In this document: positions 40,072-50,067 of the stretch, in pieces
Layout: each line of letters starts with the position of its first letter
How positions within the stretch are numbered: position 1 is the first letter of the stretch
Assembly: GCA_038040345.1 (NCBI GenBank)
Contig: JBBPIQ010000002.1
Coordinates: 36,243 to 100,242, forward strand
DNA from: Chloroflexota bacterium
Lineage (GTDB): Bacteria; Chloroflexota; Limnocylindria; P2-11E
DNA length: 64,000 nt
Direction of reading: 5' to 3'
Position numbers and translations under genes: made by a program
Notes under the pieces: generated by a model
Database searches by the model: none
What the model saw: only the letters and a program-made list of their open reading frames with translations
What the model was told of the DNA's origin: nothing

Positions 40072-40371
40072 AACAGACTGCCTAAGGAAAAATCAACGCC
40101 GCCTGGCTAGCGTGCACTTCCGGAGGCGAGATGACCATTCAGCAAACCAAACTGGATCGCGAGATGGTTCCCGTTGCTGACCGTTGCTCTCGGGGCTGTC
40201 ATGGCTGAGCTGCGGCCGGTCTACGAGACCATCTGGGCGTTCAGCTCGACGCCGCGAACCTTCGGCGCAGCATCGTGGCTGACGGCGGTTGGGTGATCCG
40301 ACCAGGCGCTAGCCTCCACTCAGATCAGCCGGCGGCCGCCTCGCAGCGAACCGACGAGAGGAAGTGAAGCC

Positions 40372-41340
40372 ATGAGGGCGGTAGTCCACGACAGATACGG
40401 GCCGCCGGACGTCTTGCGTCTCGAAGAGGTCGAGCGGCCGGTACCCAAGGACGACGAAGTCCTCGTCAAGATCTACGCCACCACTGTCAACCGGACAGAC
40501 TGCGGCATGCGCAGCGCGGAACCGTTCATCGTTCGCTTCTTCGCCGGCCTCCGGCGACCCAAGCGAAGGATCCTCGGCATGGAGCTGGCTGGCGAGGTCG
40601 AGGCAGTCGGCGCAGCCGTCACCGAGTTCGCGGTCGGTGACCACGTCTTCGGCGTCAAGGGGTTCGGCGCACACGCGGAGTTCGTCCGCATGCGGGAGAG
40701 CGCCCCGCTGGCGCATAAGCCGATCGGCATGAGCTTCGAAGAGGCGGCAGCGGTCTGCGACGGAGCGAGCCTCGCATTGGCGTGCCTCCGAAAGGCAGAT
40801 CTTCGGAAGGGGCGGAGCATCCTCATCTACGGGGCCTCTGGATCCGTCGGAACCGCAGGGGTGCAGCTGGCCAAGTACTTCGGTGCCGACGTTACTGCGG
40901 TGTGCAGCACGAAAAACCTCGAGCTCCTGAGATCGCTCGGAGCCGACAGGGTCGTCGACTACACGCAGGAAGACTTCACCAAGAACGGCAAGACCTACGA
41001 CGTCATCTTCGACGCGGTCGGCAAGCACTCGTTCAGGCGCTGCAGGCGCTCCCTGAAGCCGGGCGGGATCTACATCGAAACCGACCTGGGGTTCATGTGG
41101 CACGTTCCGCTACTGGCCTTGTTGACCAGGTGGATCGGAGACAAGAAGGTGAAGGTCGGGATAACTCAATACACGAAAAAGGACGTCCTCTTCCTGAAAG
41201 AGCTCATCGAGGCTGGCAAATACCGAGCGGTCATCGATCGGACCTACCCGTTGGAGCAAGTGGTCGAGGCGACGACGTACGTCGAAACGGGGCAGAAGAC
41301 GGGCAACGTCGTCCTGACACTTGGAGTAGCGAGAGGGTAG
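40372..41340 (+). CDS. NAD(P)-dependent MDR oxidoreductase (quinone reductase/RTN4IP-like)
   Basis: YGPPDVL, GMELAGEV, YGASGSVG, VIDRTYPL and GNVVL. Confidence 0.9.
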   Translation: MRAVVHDRYGPPDVLRLEEVERPVPKDDEVLVKIYATTVNRTDCGMRSAEPFIVRFFAGLRRPKRRILGMELAGEVEAVGAAVTEFAVGDHVFGVKGFGAHAEFVRMRESAPLAHKPIGMSFEEAAAVCDGASLALACLRKADLRKGRSILIYGASGSVGTAGVQLAKYFGADVTAVCSTKNLELLRSLGADRVVDYTQEDFTKNGKTYDVIFDAVGKHSFRRCRRSLKPGGIYIETDLGFMWHVPLLALLTRWIGDKKVKVGITQYTKKDVLFLKELIEAGKYRAVIDRTYPLEQVVEATTYVETGQKTGNVVLTLGVARG

Positions 41341-41406
41341 ATGTCTGTGAGTTCTAGTTCGGAGTGTCCCGGGCGGGTAATCATCGGTGTTTCCCGTGTC
41401 GCACAG

Positions 41407-41524
41407 GTGTTAGGGGAGTCAGGTGAGCTTCCGAGGAATCAGGTGAGGTTCCCGAAAATCGCAAAACCGCGTTTCGATCAATAGCGATGCGGGTCCGTGC
41501 TGGGGAGGGTGGATTCGAACCACC
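41407..41524 (+). repeat. 118-bp direct repeat of 49903-50020 (integrase-proximal flank plus 27 bp of the tRNA-Gln 3' end); relic att junction
   Basis: Constant offset of 8496 bp with 7 mismatches by manual alignment; includes TGCTGGGGAGGGTGGATTCGAACCACC at 41498-41524. Confidence 0.92.
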
Positions 41525-41692
41525 TTTGTCGGGGCAAGCTGTATTCGGAGATCCGTGTTCATCTTTCGCGCAGGCGAGCAATTCGTCCGACGCGACTCGC
41601 GCGTCAATTGCCGTACGCCGCGATGCGATAACGTCCGCCTCGTGGCCGGCGGCACGGCCGAGGCCCGATAGACGAAGGAGTGTGGCGCTGAC

Positions 41693-42097
41693 ATGACACG
41701 AGCGGGACCGGTCGCTGAGTTGATTGCGAAGACGCCCGATTGGCGCGGCCCGATGCTGGCGAAGCTCCGCAAGATCGTCCACGACGCGGACCCCGAGATT
41801 GCGGAGGATGTGAAGTGGAAGCGGCCCAGCAACCCACTGGGCTCGGCCGTCTGGTCGCACGACGGGATGGTGTGTGTCGGGATCATCCTCAAGGAGCGGG
41901 TGAGGCTCTCGTTCTCCGCGGGCTCAAGCCTTCCGGACCCGAAGAAGCTCTTCAACGCGCAGCTCTTGGGCAAGTCGCGGGCGATCGATGTCTCTCAGAA
42001 CGAGAAGCTCGATGAACAGGCACTCAAGGCGATCGTGAAGGCCGCCGTCGGGCACAATCTCGCGAAGACGCGAGCGCGATCGCGAAGCACGAAGTAG
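41693..42097 (+). CDS. DUF1801 (YdhG-like) domain protein
   Basis: DWRG...ADPEIAEDVKW...VWSHDG...LPDPKKLFNA...RAID. Confidence 0.88.
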   Translation: MTRAGPVAELIAKTPDWRGPMLAKLRKIVHDADPEIAEDVKWKRPSNPLGSAVWSHDGMVCVGIILKERVRLSFSAGSSLPDPKKLFNAQLLGKSRAIDVSQNEKLDEQALKAIVKAAVGHNLAKTRARSRSTK

Positions 42098-42184
42098 TAC
42101 CGGGCGCGGCATTCGACGTGATGCCGCATCGCATCCCTGAAGAACCATGTGGCCGCCAGTTCGATCTGGCCCTCTGGCACAGAG

Positions 42185-42853
42185 TCAGCGCTTAGGCGGG
42201 AATAGCTTCCAGTGCCCCTCAGAGATCACTTCGACTTTTCCGTCGACCACCTTGATGGCGGTCTCATCGTCGATCCCATACGTCGGCACCGGTACGCCGG
42301 CCGCCCACGCTTCTACGTTGGCCAGGGAGTTGTCCGGCATGGACGGGTGATCCAGGTGCACACCCAACGCGAAGTCGACCAGTGCCAGCGCTCTGTAACC
42401 CGCAGTCGGGCGATCGTTGTAGGTCTCTCCGAAGCTGGGCGTCACTGCCATACTCCCGGCGCTCACCCCCACATAGACCATCTCGCGCCGCAGCGATGGC
42501 AGCAGGTCCGCGAATCCGGACTGCCGCATCCAGTCGCAGAGATACATAGGGTCGCCGCCTCCGACCAGTAGGGCGTCGACCTCACGGACCAGAGGGATCC
42601 AGTTCTCTTTCTCGACGCTGGGCAGTGCAGTGAGCTCCAGGACCCCGAGCGATTTCCAACCGATTTCGCACAGGGGACCTCGGGCCGTTCCGCTGATGAG
42701 CCGGTAGGCGATCGCAGGTCCTTGGGAGAAGTAGTACGCCGCAGTGGGAATGACCAGGGCGCTGCATTCAGCGATCGGTCTGCCCAGCAGCTCGACCAGC
42801 GCGTTTCGGATGCTCGGATTGGTGATGCCCGCGGAAGTCAGAAGAAACCTCAT
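42185..42853 (-). CDS. Peptidase S51 (peptidase E/type 1 glutamine amidotransferase-like)
   Basis: LTSAG, IPTA, GGGD, GVSAGS, VHLDH and IDDETA. Confidence 0.88.
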   Translation of the reverse strand: MRFLLTSAGITNPSIRNALVELLGRPIAECSALVIPTAAYYFSQGPAIAYRLISGTARGPLCEIGWKSLGVLELTALPSVEKENWIPLVREVDALLVGGGDPMYLCDWMRQSGFADLLPSLRREMVYVGVSAGSMAVTPSFGETYNDRPTAGYRALALVDFALGVHLDHPSMPDNSLANVEAWAAGVPVPTYGIDDETAIKVVDGKVEVISEGHWKLFPPKR

Positions 42854-43147
42854 GATCCCTCCCGGCGAAGCGACGAGTTACCGTGGCGTTCATGAGACGA
42901 CGCTGAAGTCATTGTGAGTTCACTTGGATCACCGCGGGTCGCGAGCTCGCTAGCGTCTCCGGAATTCTGAAACGCAGGTTGGTGGGCGAGCCTGACTACG
43001 AATCAGGTGCTCTCGGAGTCAGGTGACTTTCGATGCCGCGCGACGCCGACATCCACGGCAAAGACGCGACTCGCGGCGATTACCTGATTTCCGATCAGGT
43101 GCCTTGTCGCTTCAGTGAGCTCAGAGAAACGCGAAATCATTGGGATC

Positions 43148-43196
43148 TGCTGGGGAGGGTGGATTCGAACCACCGATTACCTGATCCAGAGTCAGG
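43148..43196 (+). repeat. att site: 49-bp exact copy of the tRNA-Gln 3' half (49994-50042)
   Basis: TGCTGGGGAGGGTGGATTCGAACCACCGATTACCTGATCCAGAGTCAGG occurs at both positions; identity ends just past the anticodon stem. Confidence 0.95.
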
Positions 43197-43402
43197 TAAC
43201 GAAAATCTCGCGGTCAGTCACGAGTTCTGGCGCAAATTCAAGAAATGCGGGGAGCGGGGCCGCTTCCTGGCGTAGAGAATCAGGTGAGCTTCCCGAAGAG
43301 AAGTAATCCGATGGTTCGTGCGCGATCATCTCGACCTGCGTCAAAGGCACTCGTCTAAATAGGCGTCAAACAGGTCAGGGCTTCAAGTGCTGGACCTTGC
43401 CG

Positions 43403-44800
43403 CTAGGGGAGTGGAGTCCCGATGCTTGTCCAATGGACACCGCCGTCGACAGTCCGCTGGGTGAACCCGCGCACGGTCGCGTATCCGGTCGATGCGCTCG
43501 CGAAGATCATCAGTGGAGCGACGCCCGCAGCCTGTGAGTAATCGGATGCGAACGGATGCCAGCTGCTACCGCTATCGGTGGTTTCCAGCGAACTGTCCGC
43601 GAGCGCTATCTGAAGCCAACGCGATGCGGTGACGAAGGCGAACGCACCCGCGCGCGTGACCTCCACGACAAAGTTCCAGGACTTTCCTGCATCTACCGAA
43701 CGGAAGACGTAGAGGTGCGCGTGTTCGCCGATCTGGCCGTACGCCTGCACCAAGAGCGTCGAACCGATAGCGTGGACCGCTCCGGCTTGGAGCGTCACCC
43801 CGGCGCCCACAGTCGTGAAGCCGGGTGGATCTGGAAGCGGTTGCGAGCCCGTCCACGTTCTGCCGCCATCTGTCGTGCGGTAGATGACCGGCGCGTGATT
43901 GGCGTCCCGGCCCGAAATGTAGCCGTGCGTTCGGTCGGCGAAGACGAGCCCGGCTTTGCATTGATCGTCGAGTCCGCTCGATGTGATCTGCTGCCAGGAA
44001 ACACCTGCGTCGACCGTGTGGAATACGAGGACGTTCTGGAAGGTGCACTGCGTCGCCGCGGGACCGTTCAACGTCAGCCATCCTTCGCGATCGTCGACGA
44101 ACGCTATCTCCGGATTCACGAGCGGCCGCGCTGGAAGTGGTTGCTCCGTCCAGTGGTCGCCGCGATCGACAGAGCGGAACAGGTGCGTTCCCGCGACGAT
44201 CGCCCAGAGGGCGCTCGTCGACGTCGGCGCGAGCTGCACAAATGTCGGGAGCGCGATGGGCGTCGGTGAGGCGCCAGGTGTATTGCTCGTGGGGGCGGTA
44301 ACACCATCGCGACATCCGCTGTCCGCTAGCGGAACCGTGATCAGGCGACCGTCGAGGAGAGTCGTTTCGACGCGGTATGAGGCGGCCTCGCTCTCGAACC
44401 TGCGCTCGAGCGCCGCGTCGATTGCCACCCACGTCGAGCTGTGCAGAGCGCTCGCTCGGACACGGTTCACGCAGGTGTCCGGGCCGAAGATTCCGGAGCC
44501 CGCGATCGGGAGCGCAACCACGAGGCCCCCGTCCGCGCTAAGGATCCGAAAACCCATCGCGGTTCCGTCATAAAAGAGCTCGAGAGCGAATGGCTGCGGG
44601 GCTCCGGCGAGTCCATCGACCGCCCATTCGACGCGCGATGGAGTCTGATCGGGAGTGGGCTTAGCGGGCGGGGAGGGGAGAGGCTCGGTGGGCGTGGGCG
44701 CCGTCGGGCTCTGGGCGGGCGCGGCAGCCGGAGGAACACAGCCGGCAAGAGTCGTCGCCAGACCGAATAGGGCGGTGATCACGATGGGCTGCAGCCGCAT
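43403..44800 (-). CDS. Lipoprotein with BNR/Asp-box beta-propeller (YCF48/sialidase-like)
   Basis: Lipobox LAGC, Pro-rich linker and six S/T-x-D-x-G-x-x-W repeats. Confidence 0.8.
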   Translation of the reverse strand: MRLQPIVITALFGLATTLAGCVPPAAAPAQSPTAPTPTEPLPSPPAKPTPDQTPSRVEWAVDGLAGAPQPFALELFYDGTAMGFRILSADGGLVVALPIAGSGIFGPDTCVNRVRASALHSSTWVAIDAALERRFESEAASYRVETTLLDGRLITVPLADSGCRDGVTAPTSNTPGASPTPIALPTFVQLAPTSTSALWAIVAGTHLFRSVDRGDHWTEQPLPARPLVNPEIAFVDDREGWLTLNGPAATQCTFQNVLVFHTVDAGVSWQQITSSGLDDQCKAGLVFADRTHGYISGRDANHAPVIYRTTDGGRTWTGSQPLPDPPGFTTVGAGVTLQAGAVHAIGSTLLVQAYGQIGEHAHLYVFRSVDAGKSWNFVVEVTRAGAFAFVTASRWLQIALADSSLETTDSGSSWHPFASDYSQAAGVAPLMIFASASTGYATVRGFTQRTVDGGVHWTSIGTPLP

Positions 44801-45084
44801 CAGGACGAGAATCCCTCGGAAGGCCGTCGTCCGTCGTCCGAGTTGCGCACGTTAACTCGTACGGCCTCCCGCAGCGGACGGCGCCGCGGTCCCGCGCCAC
44901 CGAATAGCGCCTGTGGACAGCCAGGCGGAGAAGATCGTGGAGAGGAGGGGTTCACGCTCAACAGGAAGGGCCACGATTAGTGCCTGAAACGAACGAATGG
45001 CAAGATCAGACGAGCGGAGGCGGAGAACCACATGAACTACTGGAACCGTCGCGAACCACCGCGACCTGAGACGGCATAGACGCC

Positions 45085-46293
45085 ATGGCAGAACCCGGCT
45101 TCGAAACCAGGCGACTGCGAAGCGCCGACGAGCCTCTGGCGAACTTCCTCGAGGCTTTTCTGCGCCGGACGAGCATCGGTGATAAGACTCGCTACGACTA
45201 CGGGCGGCTGCTCCATGAGTTCGATGACTTCACCGATCATCCCAGCCTGCGAGACGGGCTCACCGACGCCCTCGCGACACAGTGGATTGAAACGCTCAAA
45301 GATCGCGGAGCCTTTGCCGCTCGTAATGGCGCGATGTACCTCAAGTCGTTTGCTACCTGGGCCGCTCGAAGGGGCTACTTAGCAACCGCGACAGGCGTCG
45401 GCGTCCTAGATCACTTCAAAGCGCCGCCGATCACGAAGCGGGTGCGTCGCGCGTACACCGAGCGGGAGCTCATTGCGATCTGGAAGGCCTTAGCGACGAG
45501 TCCCAAGGGTGAACGCAATCGCGCGATCGCGCTGCTGAGAGTCCTTCTCGCGACCGGCATACGACGAGACGCCGCTCGGACCTTACCGCGCCAAGACGTC
45601 GAGATCGATCCCACCCGAAACCGGGGGTCGATCACGGTCCGCGTCAAGAGCGCGCGAGGCGTCACCGATCGAAGAATCCCGCTCGACGTCGAAACCGCTG
45701 CGGCTCTTCGGGCCTATCTTGCCGACGACAAACGGCCAACGTGGGTAGGGCCTGCCCTCGAACCGCTCTTCCTGAGCAAAGATGGACAGCGTTTCACGAC
45801 GAATGGTTTTGGCAGTTGGATGGAACGGCTAGGCGAAGAGATCGAGAGCGCGACTGGAATTCAGTGGACTGCAGAAGCCATGCGGTACACGTCCAAAGAA
45901 GAGTCGAAAGCCCTTATCCACGATGCCGATCTGCGGGAGAAGTGCGGGGCCATGCTCGATACGAACAAGAGGCACGATCAAACCATCTGGGCGGCGTGCA
46001 AGGTCTTGGAACTCCGCGTGCGCAAGATCGTCGGTGCTCCTCGCGGAAAGTCGGGCGTGCCACTCATGAGGTTCGCCTTCGCGGATGAGCCGATTCGGCT
46101 TCGTCTGTCGGACGACGACAAGCTGCAACGCGCAGCAGCGGAGATGTTCACCGGACTAATGTCGTACTACCGGAACCCCGCCACTCATGAAGTGTTCGCG
46201 GACCTCAGCCAGCGCGGCGTGAGAGAAATCGTCGGTTGGGTCGATCATTTGCTGACGCTGGTCGGACAAGCCGATCGTGCGTCAACTGGTTAA
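45085..46293 (+). CDS. Degenerate tyrosine recombinase fused to a TIGR02391/Ymh (HEPN-like) domain
   Basis: Colinear with 48921-49895 (LKSFATW, YT, G-R, PLFL, F...GF...M-RLG). HxxR is replaced by EAMR and the segment with the catalytic Tyr is absent. The C-terminus has ACKVLELRVR...GVPLMRFAF...YRNPATH. Confidence 0.78.
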   Translation: MAEPGFETRRLRSADEPLANFLEAFLRRTSIGDKTRYDYGRLLHEFDDFTDHPSLRDGLTDALATQWIETLKDRGAFAARNGAMYLKSFATWAARRGYLATATGVGVLDHFKAPPITKRVRRAYTERELIAIWKALATSPKGERNRAIALLRVLLATGIRRDAARTLPRQDVEIDPTRNRGSITVRVKSARGVTDRRIPLDVETAAALRAYLADDKRPTWVGPALEPLFLSKDGQRFTTNGFGSWMERLGEEIESATGIQWTAEAMRYTSKEESKALIHDADLREKCGAMLDTNKRHDQTIWAACKVLELRVRKIVGAPRGKSGVPLMRFAFADEPIRLRLSDDDKLQRAAAEMFTGLMSYYRNPATHEVFADLSQRGVREIVGWVDHLLTLVGQADRASTG

Positions 46294-46463
46294 CGCCTCA
46301 GCCCGACGCCGCTCCAAAGGCGACAGCAGACTGACCGGGTGAGAAGGCAGCTCGATGACGCCCGCAGGTGGCCCGCTCGATCGGCGCTTCGGAGTTACGG
46401 TCGCGCGCTAAGCCGATCCTGGTTCATCGCGGCGGAACGCGATACCTGTTACGAATCAGGTCG

Positions 46464-46754
46464 TTACAGAATTCGGAACTGCTTGCGCCCAGGAGGAAAT
46501 AGGACCGTGTAATCCTCGCCCCCGACTTCGCGGTAGGCCGCTGCAAAGTCAGCGGCAACGAGCGGCTTGAGACGGTCAAACGCACGAAGCGGGTCATCGG
46601 TCAAAACGAAGATGTTCATCTCACCGCCTCCGAGGTCGTGGCCGTCGACGACACCGGCGTCCCCAAGCAAGCTTTCGGCCTGTTCCTCAAGAGCGACGAG
46701 GTCATCGAAGTCGCTTGAGGCGGCGGGCGTCTGGAGCACTAACTGGTATTTCAT
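46464..46754 (-). CDS. Conserved small acidic protein (96 aa)
   Basis: MKYQLVLQ...VDGHDLGGGEMNIFVLTDDP...AAYR...VLFPPG. Confidence 0.75.
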   Translation of the reverse strand: MKYQLVLQTPAASSDFDDLVALEEQAESLLGDAGVVDGHDLGGGEMNIFVLTDDPLRAFDRLKPLVAADFAAAYREVGGEDYTVLFPPGRKQFRIL

Positions 46755-46936
46755 TGACTGGACTGTTGCACGGGCGACAAGGCTCGAGTGCGAACCCTCG
46801 GATGTGAGTACCGACGGTTGACCTGATTGCAGATCAGGAGACGACACAGAGTCTCGGATACCTGGCGGATCGTGACCGAGCTCGTAATCGTTAGGGTTCG
46901 GCAACTCAGACGCGCTAAAGACGAACCGCGACGAGA

Positions 46937-48370
46937 ATGGATCGCATGAACCCGAGGCGCGCTCTGAAGCGGGCGGGTTTGCGTGTCGCCTGCGAACCCA
47001 GACGCCCCGAGAACCCTGGCTCCGGCGCTCAACGGGCGCGGCGGGCCGTCCTGACGCTGACCCTGACCGGGCTGCTTTTCGGTGCGTGCGAAGCCGCGCC
47101 CCTGCCTTCCCCATCGCCTGCCGCCCCGTTGGCTCGCGCCCAGGTCGAGCGGCTGTGGATTGATGACCCGAGTTACTTCGTACTACAGCCGGATGAGATG
47201 GTCGTTGACGGAGACCGCGAAATCGTCGTCGGAGTCGACTTCTCGCAGACACCTCGTCACGACGAGATCGAAGGCCGGCTTCGCGCCGGCGCGCCAAGCG
47301 GAAGCGTCATCGAGTGGCTGACCGACCGGCGCGTAACAATGCGCGTTCCTGCTGGTGGGCCATTCGACATCGATCTCAGCTCGGCCGAGCCGGCTCCTCA
47401 ATCAACAGTTCGGCTGTCGACCTCGCTAAGGTTCCACATCGACAGGCCGACCTTCGAGGTCGCGCTCTACCGTCCGAAGGACGTTCTCGCGGGATCGCTC
47501 GCACCAGTGCGGTCGTGGATCGTGCACCTGGCTCTTCAGCACATTTTGTCGTTCGCCGCCGACGGCCATCGCGCACTCGTCTACCACGGACTAACGCCCC
47601 GACGCACGGACTTCTCCATCCTCGACCTCGACAGCGGACAGAAGAGCACGCTCGCCGAACCGTTCATGCAGATGGCGAAGAACGGAACCTCATTAATGGA
47701 CTGGCTCCCAGACGGTCGTCTTCTCGGCGTCGCGCATGCCACCTCGGTTACCGGCGACACCGACGGGCAGCACCCCCTGGAGCTCCCGGGTCTCGTCGGT
47801 CAAGGCGCCGTGCTGTCGCCTTCGGGCCATCTCGTCGCGCTCTGGAGTTACGCGGAGGGCACCGCGGCGATCCTCGATCTCGCGAGCGGGAACCTCCGGC
47901 TCTTGCCAGGTACCTTCCCGCGCTGCACCGTCGGAGGCATCGTGGCGCTTTCCTGGATCGACGACGACCAGTTAGTTATCAGCGACTGCACCGCCGATCT
48001 CGGAGGCACGCCGCGGACGCGTGTGCTAAGCGCGCGCACCGGCGCAACTATCCAGACCCGCTTGGGCGACCAACTCGTGGCGATCCTCGCCGGGGGCGTT
48101 GAGTGGCGCACTCGCGCCGAGCCGGCTCAGACGATGAGCTCGCCACAGGTGGCCGCGTGGCTCGCCGACCCAACGGGGAAGGTCCTCGCAACGCTCGTCA
48201 CAGGGGTGCGCTATCTACCGGCCCCGGACGGGACTGCGCTCGCGTATGCGAATGGCGACGGGCAACACTCAGTGATCATTGACCCAGCGACCGGCCGCCA
48301 GCGCGAGGTCGCGGGCGAAGCGATGACATGGACGAAGCAGGGCGAACTCGTGGTAATCCGCCGACCGTGA
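46937..48370 (+). CDS. Lipoprotein with a TolB/WD40-like beta-propeller
   Basis: TM helix plus lipobox FGAC; repeats FAADG, WLPDG, LSPSG and PAPDG; start uncertain. Confidence 0.7.
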   Translation: MDRMNPRRALKRAGLRVACEPRRPENPGSGAQRARRAVLTLTLTGLLFGACEAAPLPSPSPAAPLARAQVERLWIDDPSYFVLQPDEMVVDGDREIVVGVDFSQTPRHDEIEGRLRAGAPSGSVIEWLTDRRVTMRVPAGGPFDIDLSSAEPAPQSTVRLSTSLRFHIDRPTFEVALYRPKDVLAGSLAPVRSWIVHLALQHILSFAADGHRALVYHGLTPRRTDFSILDLDSGQKSTLAEPFMQMAKNGTSLMDWLPDGRLLGVAHATSVTGDTDGQHPLELPGLVGQGAVLSPSGHLVALWSYAEGTAAILDLASGNLRLLPGTFPRCTVGGIVALSWIDDDQLVISDCTADLGGTPRTRVLSARTGATIQTRLGDQLVAILAGGVEWRTRAEPAQTMSSPQVAAWLADPTGKVLATLVTGVRYLPAPDGTALAYANGDGQHSVIIDPATGRQREVAGEAMTWTKQGELVVIRRP

Positions 48371-48524
48371 CTGAGGTCGTGAGAGGCTTTATGCGATGCG
48401 CGCGTTGCTCCTTCTTGTGCTCGGGCGAGGGTTTCGGCTGCAGACCTGATTCGTAGTCAGGTGCAAAGACAACGTACTTCTCCCGCCGGCAACGTGGCCA
48501 AACGCACGTCCTACTCGGCGACCG

Positions 48525-48570
48525 AGTGTTCTCCGAAGAGAACACTTGGAGAACACGCCATGAGAACACT
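48525..48570. promoter_or_regulatory. Operator-like GAGAACAC repeat cluster upstream of the integrase
   Basis: Inverted repeat AGTGTTCTC-CGAA-GAGAACACT plus further GAGAACAC copies at 48549 and 48562. Confidence 0.5.
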
Positions 48571-48920
48571 TTGAGTGGAGTAGTCACGGTCGGACTTCAG
48601 TTCTTCTCGAAGGATTACGCCATTTCACTGTGGGGCGAAGACAACGGCTACATAGCGCGATCGACACATGTTCCCACGCGATATTCGTCAACTCGTCGCA
48701 AGGTCCGGTCGCAGATGGTCGTGATGTCTCGTTTCGCGCCGCTTCCGTTCCCAACAATCCGTAGATTTCCCGACGGCCTGCTGCCCGCCGGGAAGGAACA
48801 ACATGACCGGCGAACGAACCTTAACAACACAACAGCGACCATTGCGGTGGGCGGAGATGCGTGACGAGCACACGCCCCTTCTAGACTGCGAACGGCCCCG
48901 CTCCCCGCAAGGGAGAGGAA

Positions 48921-49895
48921 ATGTCTCGCACCTTTACAGCTTCATGGGAATCTCTCGTGCGCGGTAAGGACAGCAATCTCGGCGACGTCATCGAAAGCTT
49001 CCTTCTCGCAAAGGAGGCAGAGGGCCGCTCCAAGCGGACCCTTCAGGACTACCAGACCTATCTCCGCGAGTTCGACCGCGTCACTGGCGGCCCGACCCTC
49101 GCGCGGCTCACTCCCGAAGTGGTCACGAGATATATCGCCGAACGACGACGCTCGTCACCGGCCGCCGCTCGCTACGCCGCCGCGATCCTCAAGAGCTTCG
49201 CGACATGGCTCGCGGAAATGAAGTACCTCGCGACGCCGATTGGCGGATCCGTTCTCGCGACCGTCAAAGTGCCGCGCGTCGACCGCCCCCGCAACCCGTA
49301 CACCGATCAAGAAGTTCGCACGATGATTCGTGTGCTCGGCGCGAGCAGCCAGCGCACCCGCGCTCGCGATTCAGCCGCGATCCTCACGTTACTCGGCAGC
49401 GGGCTCCGACTGAACGAGCTACGCGAGCTAGGACTTCCGAACGTGCACATCGCACGGCCGATCGAGGAGAGCTACGTCCTCGTGGCCGCCGAGACGAGCA
49501 AGAGCCGGAGCACGCGAAAAGTCAGACTCGATCCGATGGCCGCCGAGGCCATTCACAAATACATGAAGGACTGGCGACCCGACCGCGCACACGATGGACC
49601 GCTGTTTCTCACCGAAGAGGGCAAGCCATTCAGCCTCTCCGGTTTCAAGAACTACATGGCTCGACTCGGCGATCGCTTCGAAGAAGCGGGCATCGCGAAC
49701 TGGATGGCCCATCGCTCGCGTCACTACTGGGCGACGAGCGCGCACCGCGCCGGCATGAGCGTGTTCGACATCGCCGTCGAAGGCGGCTGGCGCGATCTCA
49801 AGATGGTTCAGCGATACACCAAGAGCCGCCCGTTCGAGGAGCTGCAGCGTCTGCCGACGCCGCTCTCGTTCGTGCTCCAAAAACGGGCTTCCTAA
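48921..49895 (+). CDS. Tyrosine recombinase/integrase (XerC/D-like, no arm-binding domain)
   Basis: N-terminal SAM-like core-binding domain; catalytic R (GLRLNE), K (SKS), HRSR, GW and Y (VQRYT); SD GGGAGAGG. Confidence 0.95.
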   Translation: MSRTFTASWESLVRGKDSNLGDVIESFLLAKEAEGRSKRTLQDYQTYLREFDRVTGGPTLARLTPEVVTRYIAERRRSSPAAARYAAAILKSFATWLAEMKYLATPIGGSVLATVKVPRVDRPRNPYTDQEVRTMIRVLGASSQRTRARDSAAILTLLGSGLRLNELRELGLPNVHIARPIEESYVLVAAETSKSRSTRKVRLDPMAAEAIHKYMKDWRPDRAHDGPLFLTEEGKPFSLSGFKNYMARLGDRFEEAGIANWMAHRSRHYWATSAHRAGMSVFDIAVEGGWRDLKMVQRYTKSRPFEELQRLPTPLSFVLQKRAS

Positions 49896-49910
49896 GAATC
49901 AAGTGTCAGG

Positions 49911-49950
49911 GGAGTCAGGTGAGCTTCCCAGGAATCAGGTGAGGTTCCCG
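49911..49950 (+). repeat. Tandem 20-bp direct repeats GGARTCAGGTGAGSTTCCCR (further copies at 41415, 41435, 43276 and a degenerate one at 43015)
   Basis: GGAGTCAGGTGAGCTTCCCA followed by GGAATCAGGTGAGGTTCCCG. Confidence 0.88.
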
Positions 49951-49995
49951 AAAATGGCAAAACCGCGTTTCGATCAATAGCGACGTGGGTTCTTG

Positions 49996-50067
49996 CTGGG
50001 GAGGGTGGATTCGAACCACCGATTACCTGATCCAGAGTCAGGAGCCTTACCGCTTGGCCACTCCCCA
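49996..50067 (-). tRNA. tRNA-Gln(CTG)
   Basis: TGGGGAGTGGCCAAGCGGTAAGGCTCCTGACTCTGGATCAGGTAATCGGTGGTTCGAATCCACCCTCCCCAG folds as a cloverleaf with a U1-A72 pair and CTG anticodon; CCA is not encoded. Confidence 0.96.

What the first reader, a model, noticed from the sequence alone, without database searches (positions are those of the whole stretch)
42990..50067. Candidate tRNA-anchored cassette system: Xer-like recombinase plus an array of anticodon-arm-like sites between cargo genes
Seen: seven sites of form ACCTGAY-N5-RTCAGGT (one with a 1-nt deletion) lie within 7 kb, none inside a protein-coding gene, and I noticed none elsewhere in the window. One is the tRNA-Gln anticodon arm and one is its att copy. 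The others bracket genes like cassettes: 46444 and 46821 flank the 96-aa gene (46444 ends 2 nt from its stop codon), 46821 and 48444 flank the beta-propeller lipoprotein, and 48444 and 50025 flank the integrase. Known: many tyrosine integrases cross over in the 7-nt anticodon loop using the stem as core inverted repeats, and integrons and Acinetobacter pdif modules use repeated recombinase sites to shuffle single genes. Inference: this recombinase may capture or rearrange gene-sized modules through repeated simple core sites, rather than acting as a one-shot island integrase.
Basis: partly seen in the sequence, partly recalled or inferred. Interest (0 to 1): 0.9.

Follow-up and report, generated by a model that had tools for sequence, protein, structure and literature searches.

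The report
tRNA-Gln island with extra recombinase sites
A small mobile island sitting in a tRNA-Gln gene of an uncultured soil Chloroflexota bacterium carries extra copies of its integrase's recognition site between its cargo genes, and these copies probably serve as junctions where gene modules are swapped between related islands.

Summary
CCTGAY-N5-RTCAGG occurs 7 times in the 3.0-Mb genome, 6 of them within 42991-50042, plus one 1-nt-deletion copy at 46444.

The locus is a 6.85-kb island in tRNA-Gln(CTG), bounded by a perfect 49-nt repeat. It has an Xer-like integrase without an arm-binding domain, and a relic of older insertions on its left.

The integrase's half-site, RRTCAGGT, forms both the anticodon-stem core and direct-repeat accessory sites. 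It covaries with the host tRNA stem.

Five further sites are complete core-like palindromes with other centres (ACG, GCA, TCC). The same ACG and GCA types recur in 6 other tRNA-Gln islands with unrelated cargo.

Homology between genomes breaks exactly at the ACG-type sites. One genome carries a hybrid junction of the window's two inverted ACG sites.

My best reading (about 0.5) is that these are secondary recombination sites sorted by spacer. This is a chromosomal, single-recombinase analogue of Acinetobacter dif modules.

It is not an integron, and not every island has such sites. No binding or recombination was shown. I rate it a new variant of a known kind.

The parts
41404..41524 (+). Relic of an older island end: two accessory half-sites (41418, 41438) plus the tRNA 3' end through the T arm, cut off before the anticodon arm. 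It is orthologous to the single copy next to tRNA-Gln in the 'empty-site' genome G016.
41525..43147 (.). 1.6-kb segment flanked by 27-nt direct repeats of the tRNA 3' part. It holds the S51 peptidase gene (42185-42853, minus strand). A relative in run X6 lacks it.
42990..43008 (+). ACG-type core-like palindrome (centre CTACGAA). It is the right end of the S51 module in 3 of 3 genomes, and a perfect inverted copy of 48444-48461.
   Evidence: (I5)
43077..43112 (+). Pseudo-tRNA fragment (anticodon arm plus D-arm side) whose loop is replaced. It contains the TCC-type palindrome 43082-43100.
   Evidence: (D6)
43148..43196 (+). attL: the displaced tRNA-Gln 3' half, a perfect 49-nt repeat of 49994-50042. 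Core palindrome at 43179-43197.
   Evidence: (D2)
43197..43297 (+). Conserved distal arm (P' arm) with the accessory half-site repeat 43277-43297 and the 17-nt inverted-repeat arm 43246-43262.
   Evidence: (D3, I10)
43403..44800 (-). Cargo: 465-aa BNR/sortilin-repeat protein.
45085..46293 (+). Cargo: 402-aa protein. Its first three-quarters resemble the integrase (33% identity) and are fused to a Hypoth_Ymh domain. The catalytic-tyrosine region is absent.
46444..46461 (+). ACG-type palindrome (centre TTACGAA) with a 1-nt deletion in the left stem. It lies between two convergent genes.
46464..46754 (-). Cargo: 96-aa protein with no family hit.
46821..46839 (+). GCA-type palindrome (centre TTGCAGA). 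The same site occurs in four other tRNA-Gln islands that have unrelated flanks.
46937..48370 (+). Cargo: 477-aa putative lipoprotein (lipobox-like LLFGAC), no family hit.
48444..48462 (-). ACG-type palindrome, inverted relative to the other internal sites. Its 21-nt left flank reappears, reverse-complemented, next to the S51 module in G016.
   Evidence: (I5)
48473..48871 (.). Region conserved in contigs of other metagenomes. It holds four GAGAACAC repeats (48527-48575). Function unknown.
48893..48909 (+). Second arm of the perfect 17-nt inverted repeat that brackets the cargo. The conserved integrase module starts at about 48882.
   Evidence: (I10)
48921..49895 (+). 324-aa Xer-like tyrosine recombinase (SAM-like N-terminal domain plus catalytic domain, no arm-binding domain).
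49892..49952 (+). Integrase-proximal arm with direct-repeat accessory half-sites spaced 20 nt apart (49912, 49932).
   Evidence: (D1, D3)
49995..50067 (-). tRNA-Gln(ctg). attR repeat at 49994-50042; core palindrome (anticodon arm) at 50025-50043.

Best explanation
This is a family of small islands integrated in tRNA-Gln(CTG) of Limnocylindria-like Chloroflexota.

The recombinase. One Xer-like tyrosine recombinase reads a single half-site, RRTCAGGT. Two inverted half-sites 7 bp apart, which is the anticodon stem and loop, form the crossover core. Direct repeats of the same half-site on both arms act as accessory sites, as in the TnpI/IRS system.

The extra palindromes. The five additional palindromes in and beside the cargo are complete core-type sites whose central bases differ (ACG, GCA, TCC and others). 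I propose that the integrase recombines only sites with matching centres. Like-centred sites in two islands then recombine, for example after an excised circle enters a cell that already holds an island. A second like-centred pair resolves the product. The result is that gene modules are swapped, inverted or dropped, while each class of site is preserved.

What is shown:
- the site architecture;
- confinement of the sites to this locus;
- recurrence of the site types in other islands;
- homology breakpoints at the sites;
- one hybrid junction.

What is inferred:
- that the integrase binds and cuts the internal sites;
- that the centre of the site acts as an address;
- the cointegrate route.
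For: (1) Confinement to the locus. 6 of 7 genome-wide sites lie here, and 6 of 8 consensus hits at up to 2 mismatches.

(2) The half-site covaries with the host tRNA stem in three states: TCAGG, TCAGC (L025, L021) and TCAGA (L083). A hybrid core in L056 places the crossover in the anticodon loop (unpublished genome G045).

(3) Recurrence. 7 of 13 related islands carry at least one internal non-Gln site at up to 1 mismatch. The GCA type is in 5 islands (window, L047, L048, L076, L084). The ACG type is in window, L067, L076 and L085. Cargo and flanks are unrelated by blastn and tblastn.

(4) L076, whose integrase is 80% identical, has ACG then GCA sites in the same order as the window, with a different gene between them.

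(5) Orientation relative to the tRNA is the same for 5 of 5 GCA sites and 5 of 6 ACG sites.

(6) Breakpoints. The S51 module ends at the ACG site in 3 of 3 genomes: G000, G005 and G016. Two X5 contigs diverge at 43008 and at 42991.

(7) Hybrid junction. G016:C22 joins the left side of 42991 to the reverse complement of the left side of 48444.

(8) Precedent. pdif sites recombine when their spacers are identical or nearly so, and modules are replaced through cointegrates (PMC13141974, passages read).
Against: - No experiment or read-level junction shows recombination in this organism. The runs were available only as contigs.
- 6 of 13 related islands have no internal site. These include L074, whose integrase is 94% identical and which shows none in 10 kb.
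- Homologues of the 96-aa gene in 10 other loci have no site within about 1.5 kb.
- For 46444 and 46822 there is no breakpoint evidence, because no other locus shares their neighbouring DNA.
- One X3 variant diverges at 48378, 66 nt left of the 48444 site.
- 42991 also resembles the first accessory site after an integrase stop codon (D5), so part of the pattern may be relic.
- The related islands are kin, so counts of recurrence and orientation are not independent.
- The path of the metagenome assembly through the 49-nt repeat could not be checked with contigs of word size 31.
Confidence: 0.5

Rival explanations
1. Relics of accretion. The palindromes are leftovers of earlier tandem integrations at the same tRNA: old att cores and old accessory sites. 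They no longer recombine and have no function.
For: - Tandem history is plain. There are three att-like copies (41498, 43148, 49994). G016 has an empty site. An X6 relative lacks 41525-43147.
- 42991-43031 and 43077-43112 are decayed copies of the integrase-proximal arm and the tRNA.
- Tandem arrays and scattered partial tRNAs are known for tycheposons (bioRxiv 10.1101/2020.12.28.424599, passages read).
Against: - The flanks of 46444, 46822 and 48445 show no significant likeness to the tRNA or the arms.
- The stems are perfect while 3 to 5 of the 7 loop bases differ from the tRNA loop. Neutral decay would not give that.
- Identical GCA-type and ACG-type sites recur in islands with unrelated flanks on both sides.
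- G016 carries a hybrid junction.
Confidence: 0.2
2. Integrase-binding sites without strand exchange. The palindromes bind the integrase, or the integrase-like Ymh fusion protein, as operators, insulators or architectural sites that tune cargo expression or excision.
For: - A 19-nt palindrome is a typical site for a dimeric DNA-binding protein.
- 46822 lies in the 183-bp divergent region between the 96-aa gene and the lipoprotein gene.
- A catalytically incomplete integrase paralogue is encoded in the cargo.
Against: - The positions are inconsistent: a divergent promoter region, a convergent gene end, and a gap between same-direction genes.
- The fusion protein was not found in the other islands that have sites.
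- This reading does not explain the breakpoints or the hybrid junction.
Confidence: 0.15
3. Integron-like capture. Each gene travels with its own site as a single-stranded hairpin cassette that inserts at a primary site.
For: - The sites are palindromes between single genes.
- The S51 module carries a site at one end only.
Against: - The integron-integrase model scores 18.1 against a cut-off of 265.
- The hairpins are weak, -3.2 to -5.8 kcal/mol, and short.
- Genes point both ways.
- Homologues of the 96-aa gene carry no site.
- The same site type sits next to different genes.
Confidence: 0.03

Closest known systems
dif modules of Acinetobacter Rep_3 plasmids (pdif sites, XerC/XerD)
   Same: - Many short recombinase sites with conserved binding arms and variable spacers lie between small gene modules.
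- Recombination happens between sites with identical or near-identical spacers.
- Modules are replaced between replicons through a cointegrate (PMC13141974, passages read).
- Here, site classes with the same centre recur across islands that differ in cargo.
   Different: - Here the setting is a chromosomal island anchored in a tRNA gene.
- The recombinase is a single one encoded by the element.
- The sites are symmetric, with two like half-sites and a 7-bp spacer derived from an anticodon arm.
- The sites are mostly in one orientation rather than alternating.
- The host is Chloroflexota.
- Activity is not shown.
tRNA-integrating genomic islands with tandem accretion (Islander-type islands; tycheposons of Prochlorococcus)
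   Same: - A tyrosine integrase lies next to an intact tRNA.
- The displaced tRNA 3' half forms a direct repeat.
- Repeated integration at one tRNA pushes older elements inward and leaves partial tRNAs and broken elements (PMC4383910, listing and abstract start only).
   Different: The extra sites here are not partial tRNAs. They are bare core palindromes with altered centres, and they are conserved as types across islands.
TnpI / internal resolution site of Tn4430
   Same: The recombinase has no separate arm-binding domain. Its core of two inverted binding motifs is flanked by direct repeats of the same motif that act as accessory sites (PMC2847244, abstract read). Here direct repeats of the core half-site lie on both arms.
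   Different: TnpI resolves transposition cointegrates at a single site. Here the enzyme integrates an island into a tRNA gene, and further core-like sites exist in the cargo.
Integrons
   Same: A tyrosine recombinase and an array of recombination sites between single genes.
   Different: - The integrase family does not match.
- There are no long imperfect attC hairpins.
- Gene orientations are mixed.
- The sites are not tied to particular genes.
GIsul2 integrase acting on an internal sub-unit
   Same: An island integrase is reported to mobilise a sub-unit of its island as well as the whole island (PMC9376610, search listing and start of abstract only).
   Different: I did not read the paper beyond its listing. 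It reports no tRNA-derived site classes there.

Membership tests
tRNA-integrated genomic island with tyrosine integrase | Intact tRNA gene plus a displaced 3' fragment as a direct repeat bounding the element | tested here: met
   Perfect 49-nt repeat 43148-43196 / 49994-50042. The tRNA-Gln is intact.
tRNA-integrated genomic island with tyrosine integrase | Integrase gene next to the tRNA, with the catalytic motifs present | tested here: met
   PF00589 E 1.5e-20. The alignment to XerA 4a8e shows the box I Arg, HRSRH and RYTK regions.
tRNA-integrated genomic island with tyrosine integrase | Element absent from the same site in a relative | tested here: met
   In G016:C97, window 40337-41524 (96% identity) runs straight into tRNA-Gln.
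tRNA-integrated genomic island with tyrosine integrase | Excision or integration activity | not testable with these tools
   Only contigs were available. No circular junction was seen.
dif modules (pdif) | Sites made of distinct XerC and XerD binding arms with a 6-bp spacer | tested here: not met
   The sites are symmetric, with two like half-sites and a 7-bp spacer.
dif modules (pdif) | Modules bounded by inversely oriented sites, alternating C and D modules | tested here: not met
   Internal sites share one orientation: 5 of 5 GCA-type and 5 of 6 ACG-type.
dif modules (pdif) | Recombination between sites with identical or near-identical spacers | tested here: inconclusive
   Spacer classes recur. 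G016 holds a hybrid of two ACG-type sites. No event was observed directly.
dif modules (pdif) | Carried on Acinetobacter Rep_3/OrfX plasmids and served by the host XerCD | tested here: not met
   The locus is chromosomal in a Chloroflexota genome, and the recombinase is encoded by the element.
Integron | IntI-type integrase | tested here: not met
   TIGR02249 scores 18.1 bits against a cut-off of 265.
Integron | attC sites: long imperfect palindromes that fold as single strands | tested here: not met
   The palindromes are 19 nt and fold at -3.2 to -5.8 kcal/mol.
TnpI/IRS-type site architecture | Core of inverted motifs plus adjacent direct repeats of the same motif; recombinase without an arm-binding domain | tested here: met
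   Direct repeats at 43277, 49912 and 49932 share the core half-site. The domain make-up is SAM-like plus catalytic only. The role of the repeats as accessory sites is inferred.
XerC / XerD / XerA chromosome-dimer resolvases | Score above the family cut-off | tested here: not met
   XerA 88.5 against 220; XerC 73.2 against 335; XerD 64.6 against 330.

The most novel reading that the evidence does not exclude
A natural form of recombinase-mediated cassette exchange. One small Xer-like integrase uses palindromes copied from a tRNA anticodon arm, and the three central bases, the former anticodon, work as an address code. Gene modules would then move only between like-addressed sites of related islands. 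That would give uncultured soil Chloroflexota a chromosomal, tRNA-anchored gene-shuffling platform distinct from integrons and from dif modules.
Probability: 0.3. Interest if true: 0.8.

Novelty: new variant of a known kind. Interest (0 to 1): 0.62.

Why it matters
If the internal sites are active, this would be a third way, besides integrons and plasmid dif modules, in which a tyrosine recombinase builds and reshuffles arrays of single-gene modules.

- It works in a chromosome, is anchored to a tRNA gene, and needs one small enzyme with a 19-nt symmetric site.
- It would explain how islands with nearly the same integrase carry wholly different cargo in a poorly known, abundant soil and freshwater lineage.
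- It would offer a compact set of naturally orthogonal recombination sites for testing how spacer identity governs strand exchange.

If the sites are inactive, the locus remains a clear example of tandem accretion at a tRNA hot spot.

Tried and rejected
Flank test. I looked for likeness between the flanks of the five non-att sites and the tRNA or the arms. Only the region left of attL matched. 46444, 46822 and 48445 did not, so they are not recognisable decayed att sites.

Terminators. None of the sites is terminator-like. The region had 3 terminator-like hits, none at a site, against a shuffle mean of 6.8.

RNA families. Rfam found only the tRNA and the attL pseudo-tRNA.

Copies of other tRNA arms. 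In this genome only tRNA-Gln(CTG) and tRNA-Pro(GGG) have the CCTGA/TCAGG stem, so the sites are not copies of other tRNAs of this genome.

Anticodon-loop mimicry. The pattern Y-T-NNN-R-A fits an anticodon loop, but it fits an extended half-site equally well. Two chance matches inside coding regions (L053/L064 and L057/L058) also fit it. I do not claim mimicry.

Single-strand hairpin model. The folds are weak.

Defence content. PADLOC gave no hits for 6 cargo proteins.

Cassette tied to its gene. Homologues of the 96-aa gene in L097-L106 have no site.

Sequencing runs. All four runs laid (X3-X6) were contigs, so no read-level junctions, circles or frequencies could be obtained. Parts without cover in X5 and X6 say nothing.

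Unexplained joint. X3 and X4 show a joint of 44206 with 48418 on opposite strands, shorter side 32 letters. I could not explain it.

Literature. Searches for an earlier description of internal core-like sites in tRNA-anchored islands found none in the listings I saw. A search for Limnocylindria with integrase gave one unrelated paper. This does not show that nothing is in print.

Tools not available.


Full report
**1. The observation**

- The strict 19-mer has 3 matches, and none of 100 shuffles gave any.
- The 17-mer CCTGAY-N5-RTCAGG has 6 exact matches at 42991, 43083, 43180, 46822, 48445 and 50026. The expectation is 0.46, and 0 of 100 shuffles reached 6.
- A seventh copy at 46444-46461 lacks one base of the left stem.
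- In the whole 2,997,568-base genome the 17-mer occurs 7 times, 6 of them here.
- A 19-nt consensus, ACCTGAYT-NNN-RATCAGGT, at up to 2 mismatches has 8 hits, 6 of them here.
- Among 94 genomes of the order this genome has the most matches (7). The reversed-pattern control gives 0 to 2 per genome.

**2. Anatomy of the locus**

The island. tRNA-Gln(ctg) lies at 49995-50067 on the minus strand. A perfect 49-nt direct repeat (43148-43196 and 49994-50042) bounds a 6.85-kb island.

Its genes are:
- a BNR-repeat protein;
- a 402-aa protein made of an integrase-like part fused to a Hypoth_Ymh domain;
- a 96-aa protein;
- a 477-aa putative lipoprotein;
- next to the tRNA, a 324-aa tyrosine recombinase with a SAM-like N-terminal domain and a catalytic domain only.

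The recombinase. Its nearest solved relative is Pyrococcus XerA (4a8e, E 4.9e-9). It scores far below the cut-offs for XerA, XerC, XerD and integron integrases.

The host. Record titles of the closest loci name Chloroflexi and Candidatus Limnocylindria genomes assembled from metagenomes.

Older history on the left.
- In the related genome G016, the sequence matching window 40337-41524 (96% identity) runs directly into tRNA-Gln. The window therefore carries about 8.5 kb extra.
- At 41404-41524 lies an older copy of the integrase-proximal arm plus the tRNA 3' end, cut off after the T arm.
- The segment 41525-43147 holds the S51 peptidase gene and is flanked by 27-nt repeats of the tRNA 3' part.
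- A contig in run X6 joins 41524 to 43210 through an intact core, so a relative lacks this segment.
- 42996-43031 and 43077-43112 are 75% copies of the arm just after the integrase and of the tRNA anticodon and D-arm side (D5, D6).

**3. What the integrase reads**

- Direct repeats GAATCAGGTGAG lie on both arms, at 43277, 49912 and 49932. They share the half-site of the anticodon stem (D3).
- Across loci the base after TCAG in these repeats follows the host tRNA stem. It is TCAGG in this genus, TCAGC in L025 and L021, and TCAGA in one of the two repeats of L083.
- In L056 the attL core is a hybrid of an element half (CCTGA) and a host half (TCAGC) around the loop. This puts the crossover in the anticodon loop (this rests on the unpublished genome G045).
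- That agrees with the textbook view that the 7-base loop is the overlap region and the stem is the core (PMC8371274, passages read).
- A core of inverted motifs with direct repeats of the same motif beside it, served by a recombinase without an arm-binding domain, is the layout of TnpI and its resolution site (PMC2847244, abstract read).

**4. The extra palindromes**

The five non-att sites are complete core-type sites. Each has two perfect half-sites 7 bp apart. Their centres are CTACGAA (42990), TTTCCGA (43082), TTACGAA (46444), TTGCAGA (46821) and, inverted, CTACGAA (48444).

What they are not:
- Their stems are intact while 3 to 5 of the 7 loop bases differ from the tRNA loop.
- The flanks of the three sites inside the cargo have no significant likeness to the tRNA or the arms.
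- They are not terminators.
- They match no RNA family.
- They are not copies of other tRNA arms of this genome.
- They fold only weakly as single strands.

**5. Comparison with related islands**

I gathered islands through the integrase and through the att repeat. Of 13 islands with enough interior sequence:
- 7 carry at least one internal non-Gln site at up to 1 mismatch: window, L047/G004, L048/G015, L067/G005, L076, L084, and L085 (the same island as L086 and L087).
- 6 do not: L046/G020 (only a half-site relic), L074, L024 (the same contig as L077), L073, L075 and L021. L074 has a 94% identical integrase and no site in 10 kb.

The same two types recur. GCA-type is in 5 islands and ACG-type in 4, plus the relic in L046.

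L076 is a complete 5.7-kb island with an 80% identical integrase.
- It shares with the window only attL with the distal arm (43146-43291) and the integrase-arm-tRNA block (from 48893).
- Its cargo is unrelated by blastn and tblastn.
- Yet it has an ACG-type and then a GCA-type site in the same order and orientation as 46444 and 46821, with a different gene between them.

Other counts:
- Orientation relative to the tRNA is the same for 5 of 5 GCA-type and 5 of 6 ACG-type sites. The exception is 48444.
- In a scan of 401 genomes of the class, the GCA-type site at up to 1 mismatch occurs in 5. Three are tRNA-Gln islands of this genus. I did not examine the other two, which are one-mismatch hits.
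- These islands are kin, so the counts are not independent events.

**6. Breakpoints**

The S51 module is found in three genomes in three different surroundings. In all three its right end is the ACG-type site.
- Window 42151-43006 matches G005 (L067 3908-3039) at 91.5%.
- Window 42175-43004 matches G016 (L117 3544-4382) at 94.8%.
- In G005 the module lies between an attL-like core with distal arm and the ACG site. A PHP-domain gene and tRNA-Gln follow.
- In run X5 one contig covers 42023-43008 and then runs on unlike the window. Another covers 42991-43164 and runs on unlike it in the other direction.

The strongest single result comes from G016:C22.
- There the S51 module and a degenerate ACG site are followed by 21 bases.
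- These bases are the reverse complement of window 48423-48444, the left flank of the inverted ACG site at 48444, with 20 of 21 identical by my reading. BLAST gives 92.5% over 40 bases including the site.
- That is the junction expected if the window's two inverted ACG sites, or their ancestors, had recombined with each other.

**7. Results against the cassette reading**

- 6 of 13 islands lack internal sites.
- Homologues of the 96-aa gene elsewhere have no sites.
- The conserved integrase module begins at 48882, not at the 48444 site.
- One X3 variant diverges at 48378, 66 nt from that site.
- For 46444 and 46821 no neighbour DNA is shared with any other locus, so no breakpoint could be tested.
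- 42990 is also homologous to the first accessory site after an integrase stop codon (D5).
- No binding or recombination was observed.
- Contigs cannot confirm the assembly path through the 49-nt repeat. However, independent contigs (L076, L085-L087) show the same integrated layout.

**8. Mechanism and comparison with known systems**

The best fit is a set of secondary recombination sites sorted by their centres.
- Acinetobacter dif modules are the closest known system. Their pdif sites have conserved arms and variable spacers. [quoted passage not shown] Single modules are replaced through a cointegrate formed at one matching pair and resolved at a second pair (PMC13141974, passages read).
- The present case differs in several ways. 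It is chromosomal and anchored to a tRNA. It uses one element-encoded recombinase. Its sites are symmetric and derived from a tRNA. Its sites mostly share one orientation.
- Tandem accretion as described for tycheposons accounts for the att copies and the relic, but not for the conserved site classes.
- It is not an integron.

**9. Verdict**

I give the spacer-sorted module-exchange reading about 0.5, inert relics 0.2, binding without exchange 0.15 and integron-like capture 0.03.

Noticed in passing
window 45085-46293 (+): A 402-aa protein whose residues 11-268 align with integrase residues 13-268 (33% identity). It then continues into a Hypoth_Ymh (TIGR02391) domain instead of the catalytic-tyrosine region. 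It may be a recombinase-derived DNA-binding protein. PADLOC gave no hit.
   Followed up: partly
window 43246-43262 and 48893-48909: A perfect 17-nt GC-rich inverted repeat brackets the whole cargo region, just inside the distal arm and just upstream of the integrase start. The same pair is visible in L076. Its function is unknown.
   Followed up: partly
window 48473-48871: A non-coding-looking stretch with four GAGAACAC repeats (48527-48575, one inverted). It is covered by contigs of the unrelated runs X5 and X6, although the integrase body is not. It may be a regulator-binding region or a small gene.
   Followed up: no
window 44206 and 48418: Runs X3 and X4 each hold one contig that joins these two places on opposite strands (shorter side 32 letters). 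I found no repeat that would explain it.
   Followed up: partly
G000 contig C4 (tRNA-Pro GGG) and L004, L005, L012: tRNA-Pro(GGG) shares the CCTGA/TCAGG anticodon stem. More distant integrase relatives (36-38% identity) lie beside a sequence identical to the tRNA-Tyr(GTA) anticodon arm (stem GCTGA/TCAGC). This suggests the wider family targets tRNAs with CTGA/TCAG stems.
   Followed up: partly
L059 1-357 and L060 6743-7103 (G001): A 360-bp segment, 97% identical between two contigs, holds a GCC-type site of the same architecture and lies at contig ends. It is a repeated element that breaks the assembly.
   Followed up: no
L055 878 (G006), L056 1352 (G045, unpublished), window 43082: TCC- and CCC-centred sites recur in three genomes of two genera, next to sequence resembling the distal arm. 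In G006 the site sits where an att core would be.
   Followed up: partly
L048 7958-9047 (G015:C142): A roughly 1-kb mini-segment between two att copies holds a 45-51% identical homologue of the 96-aa gene plus one more small gene. It looks like a cargo-only unit bounded by att repeats.
   Followed up: partly
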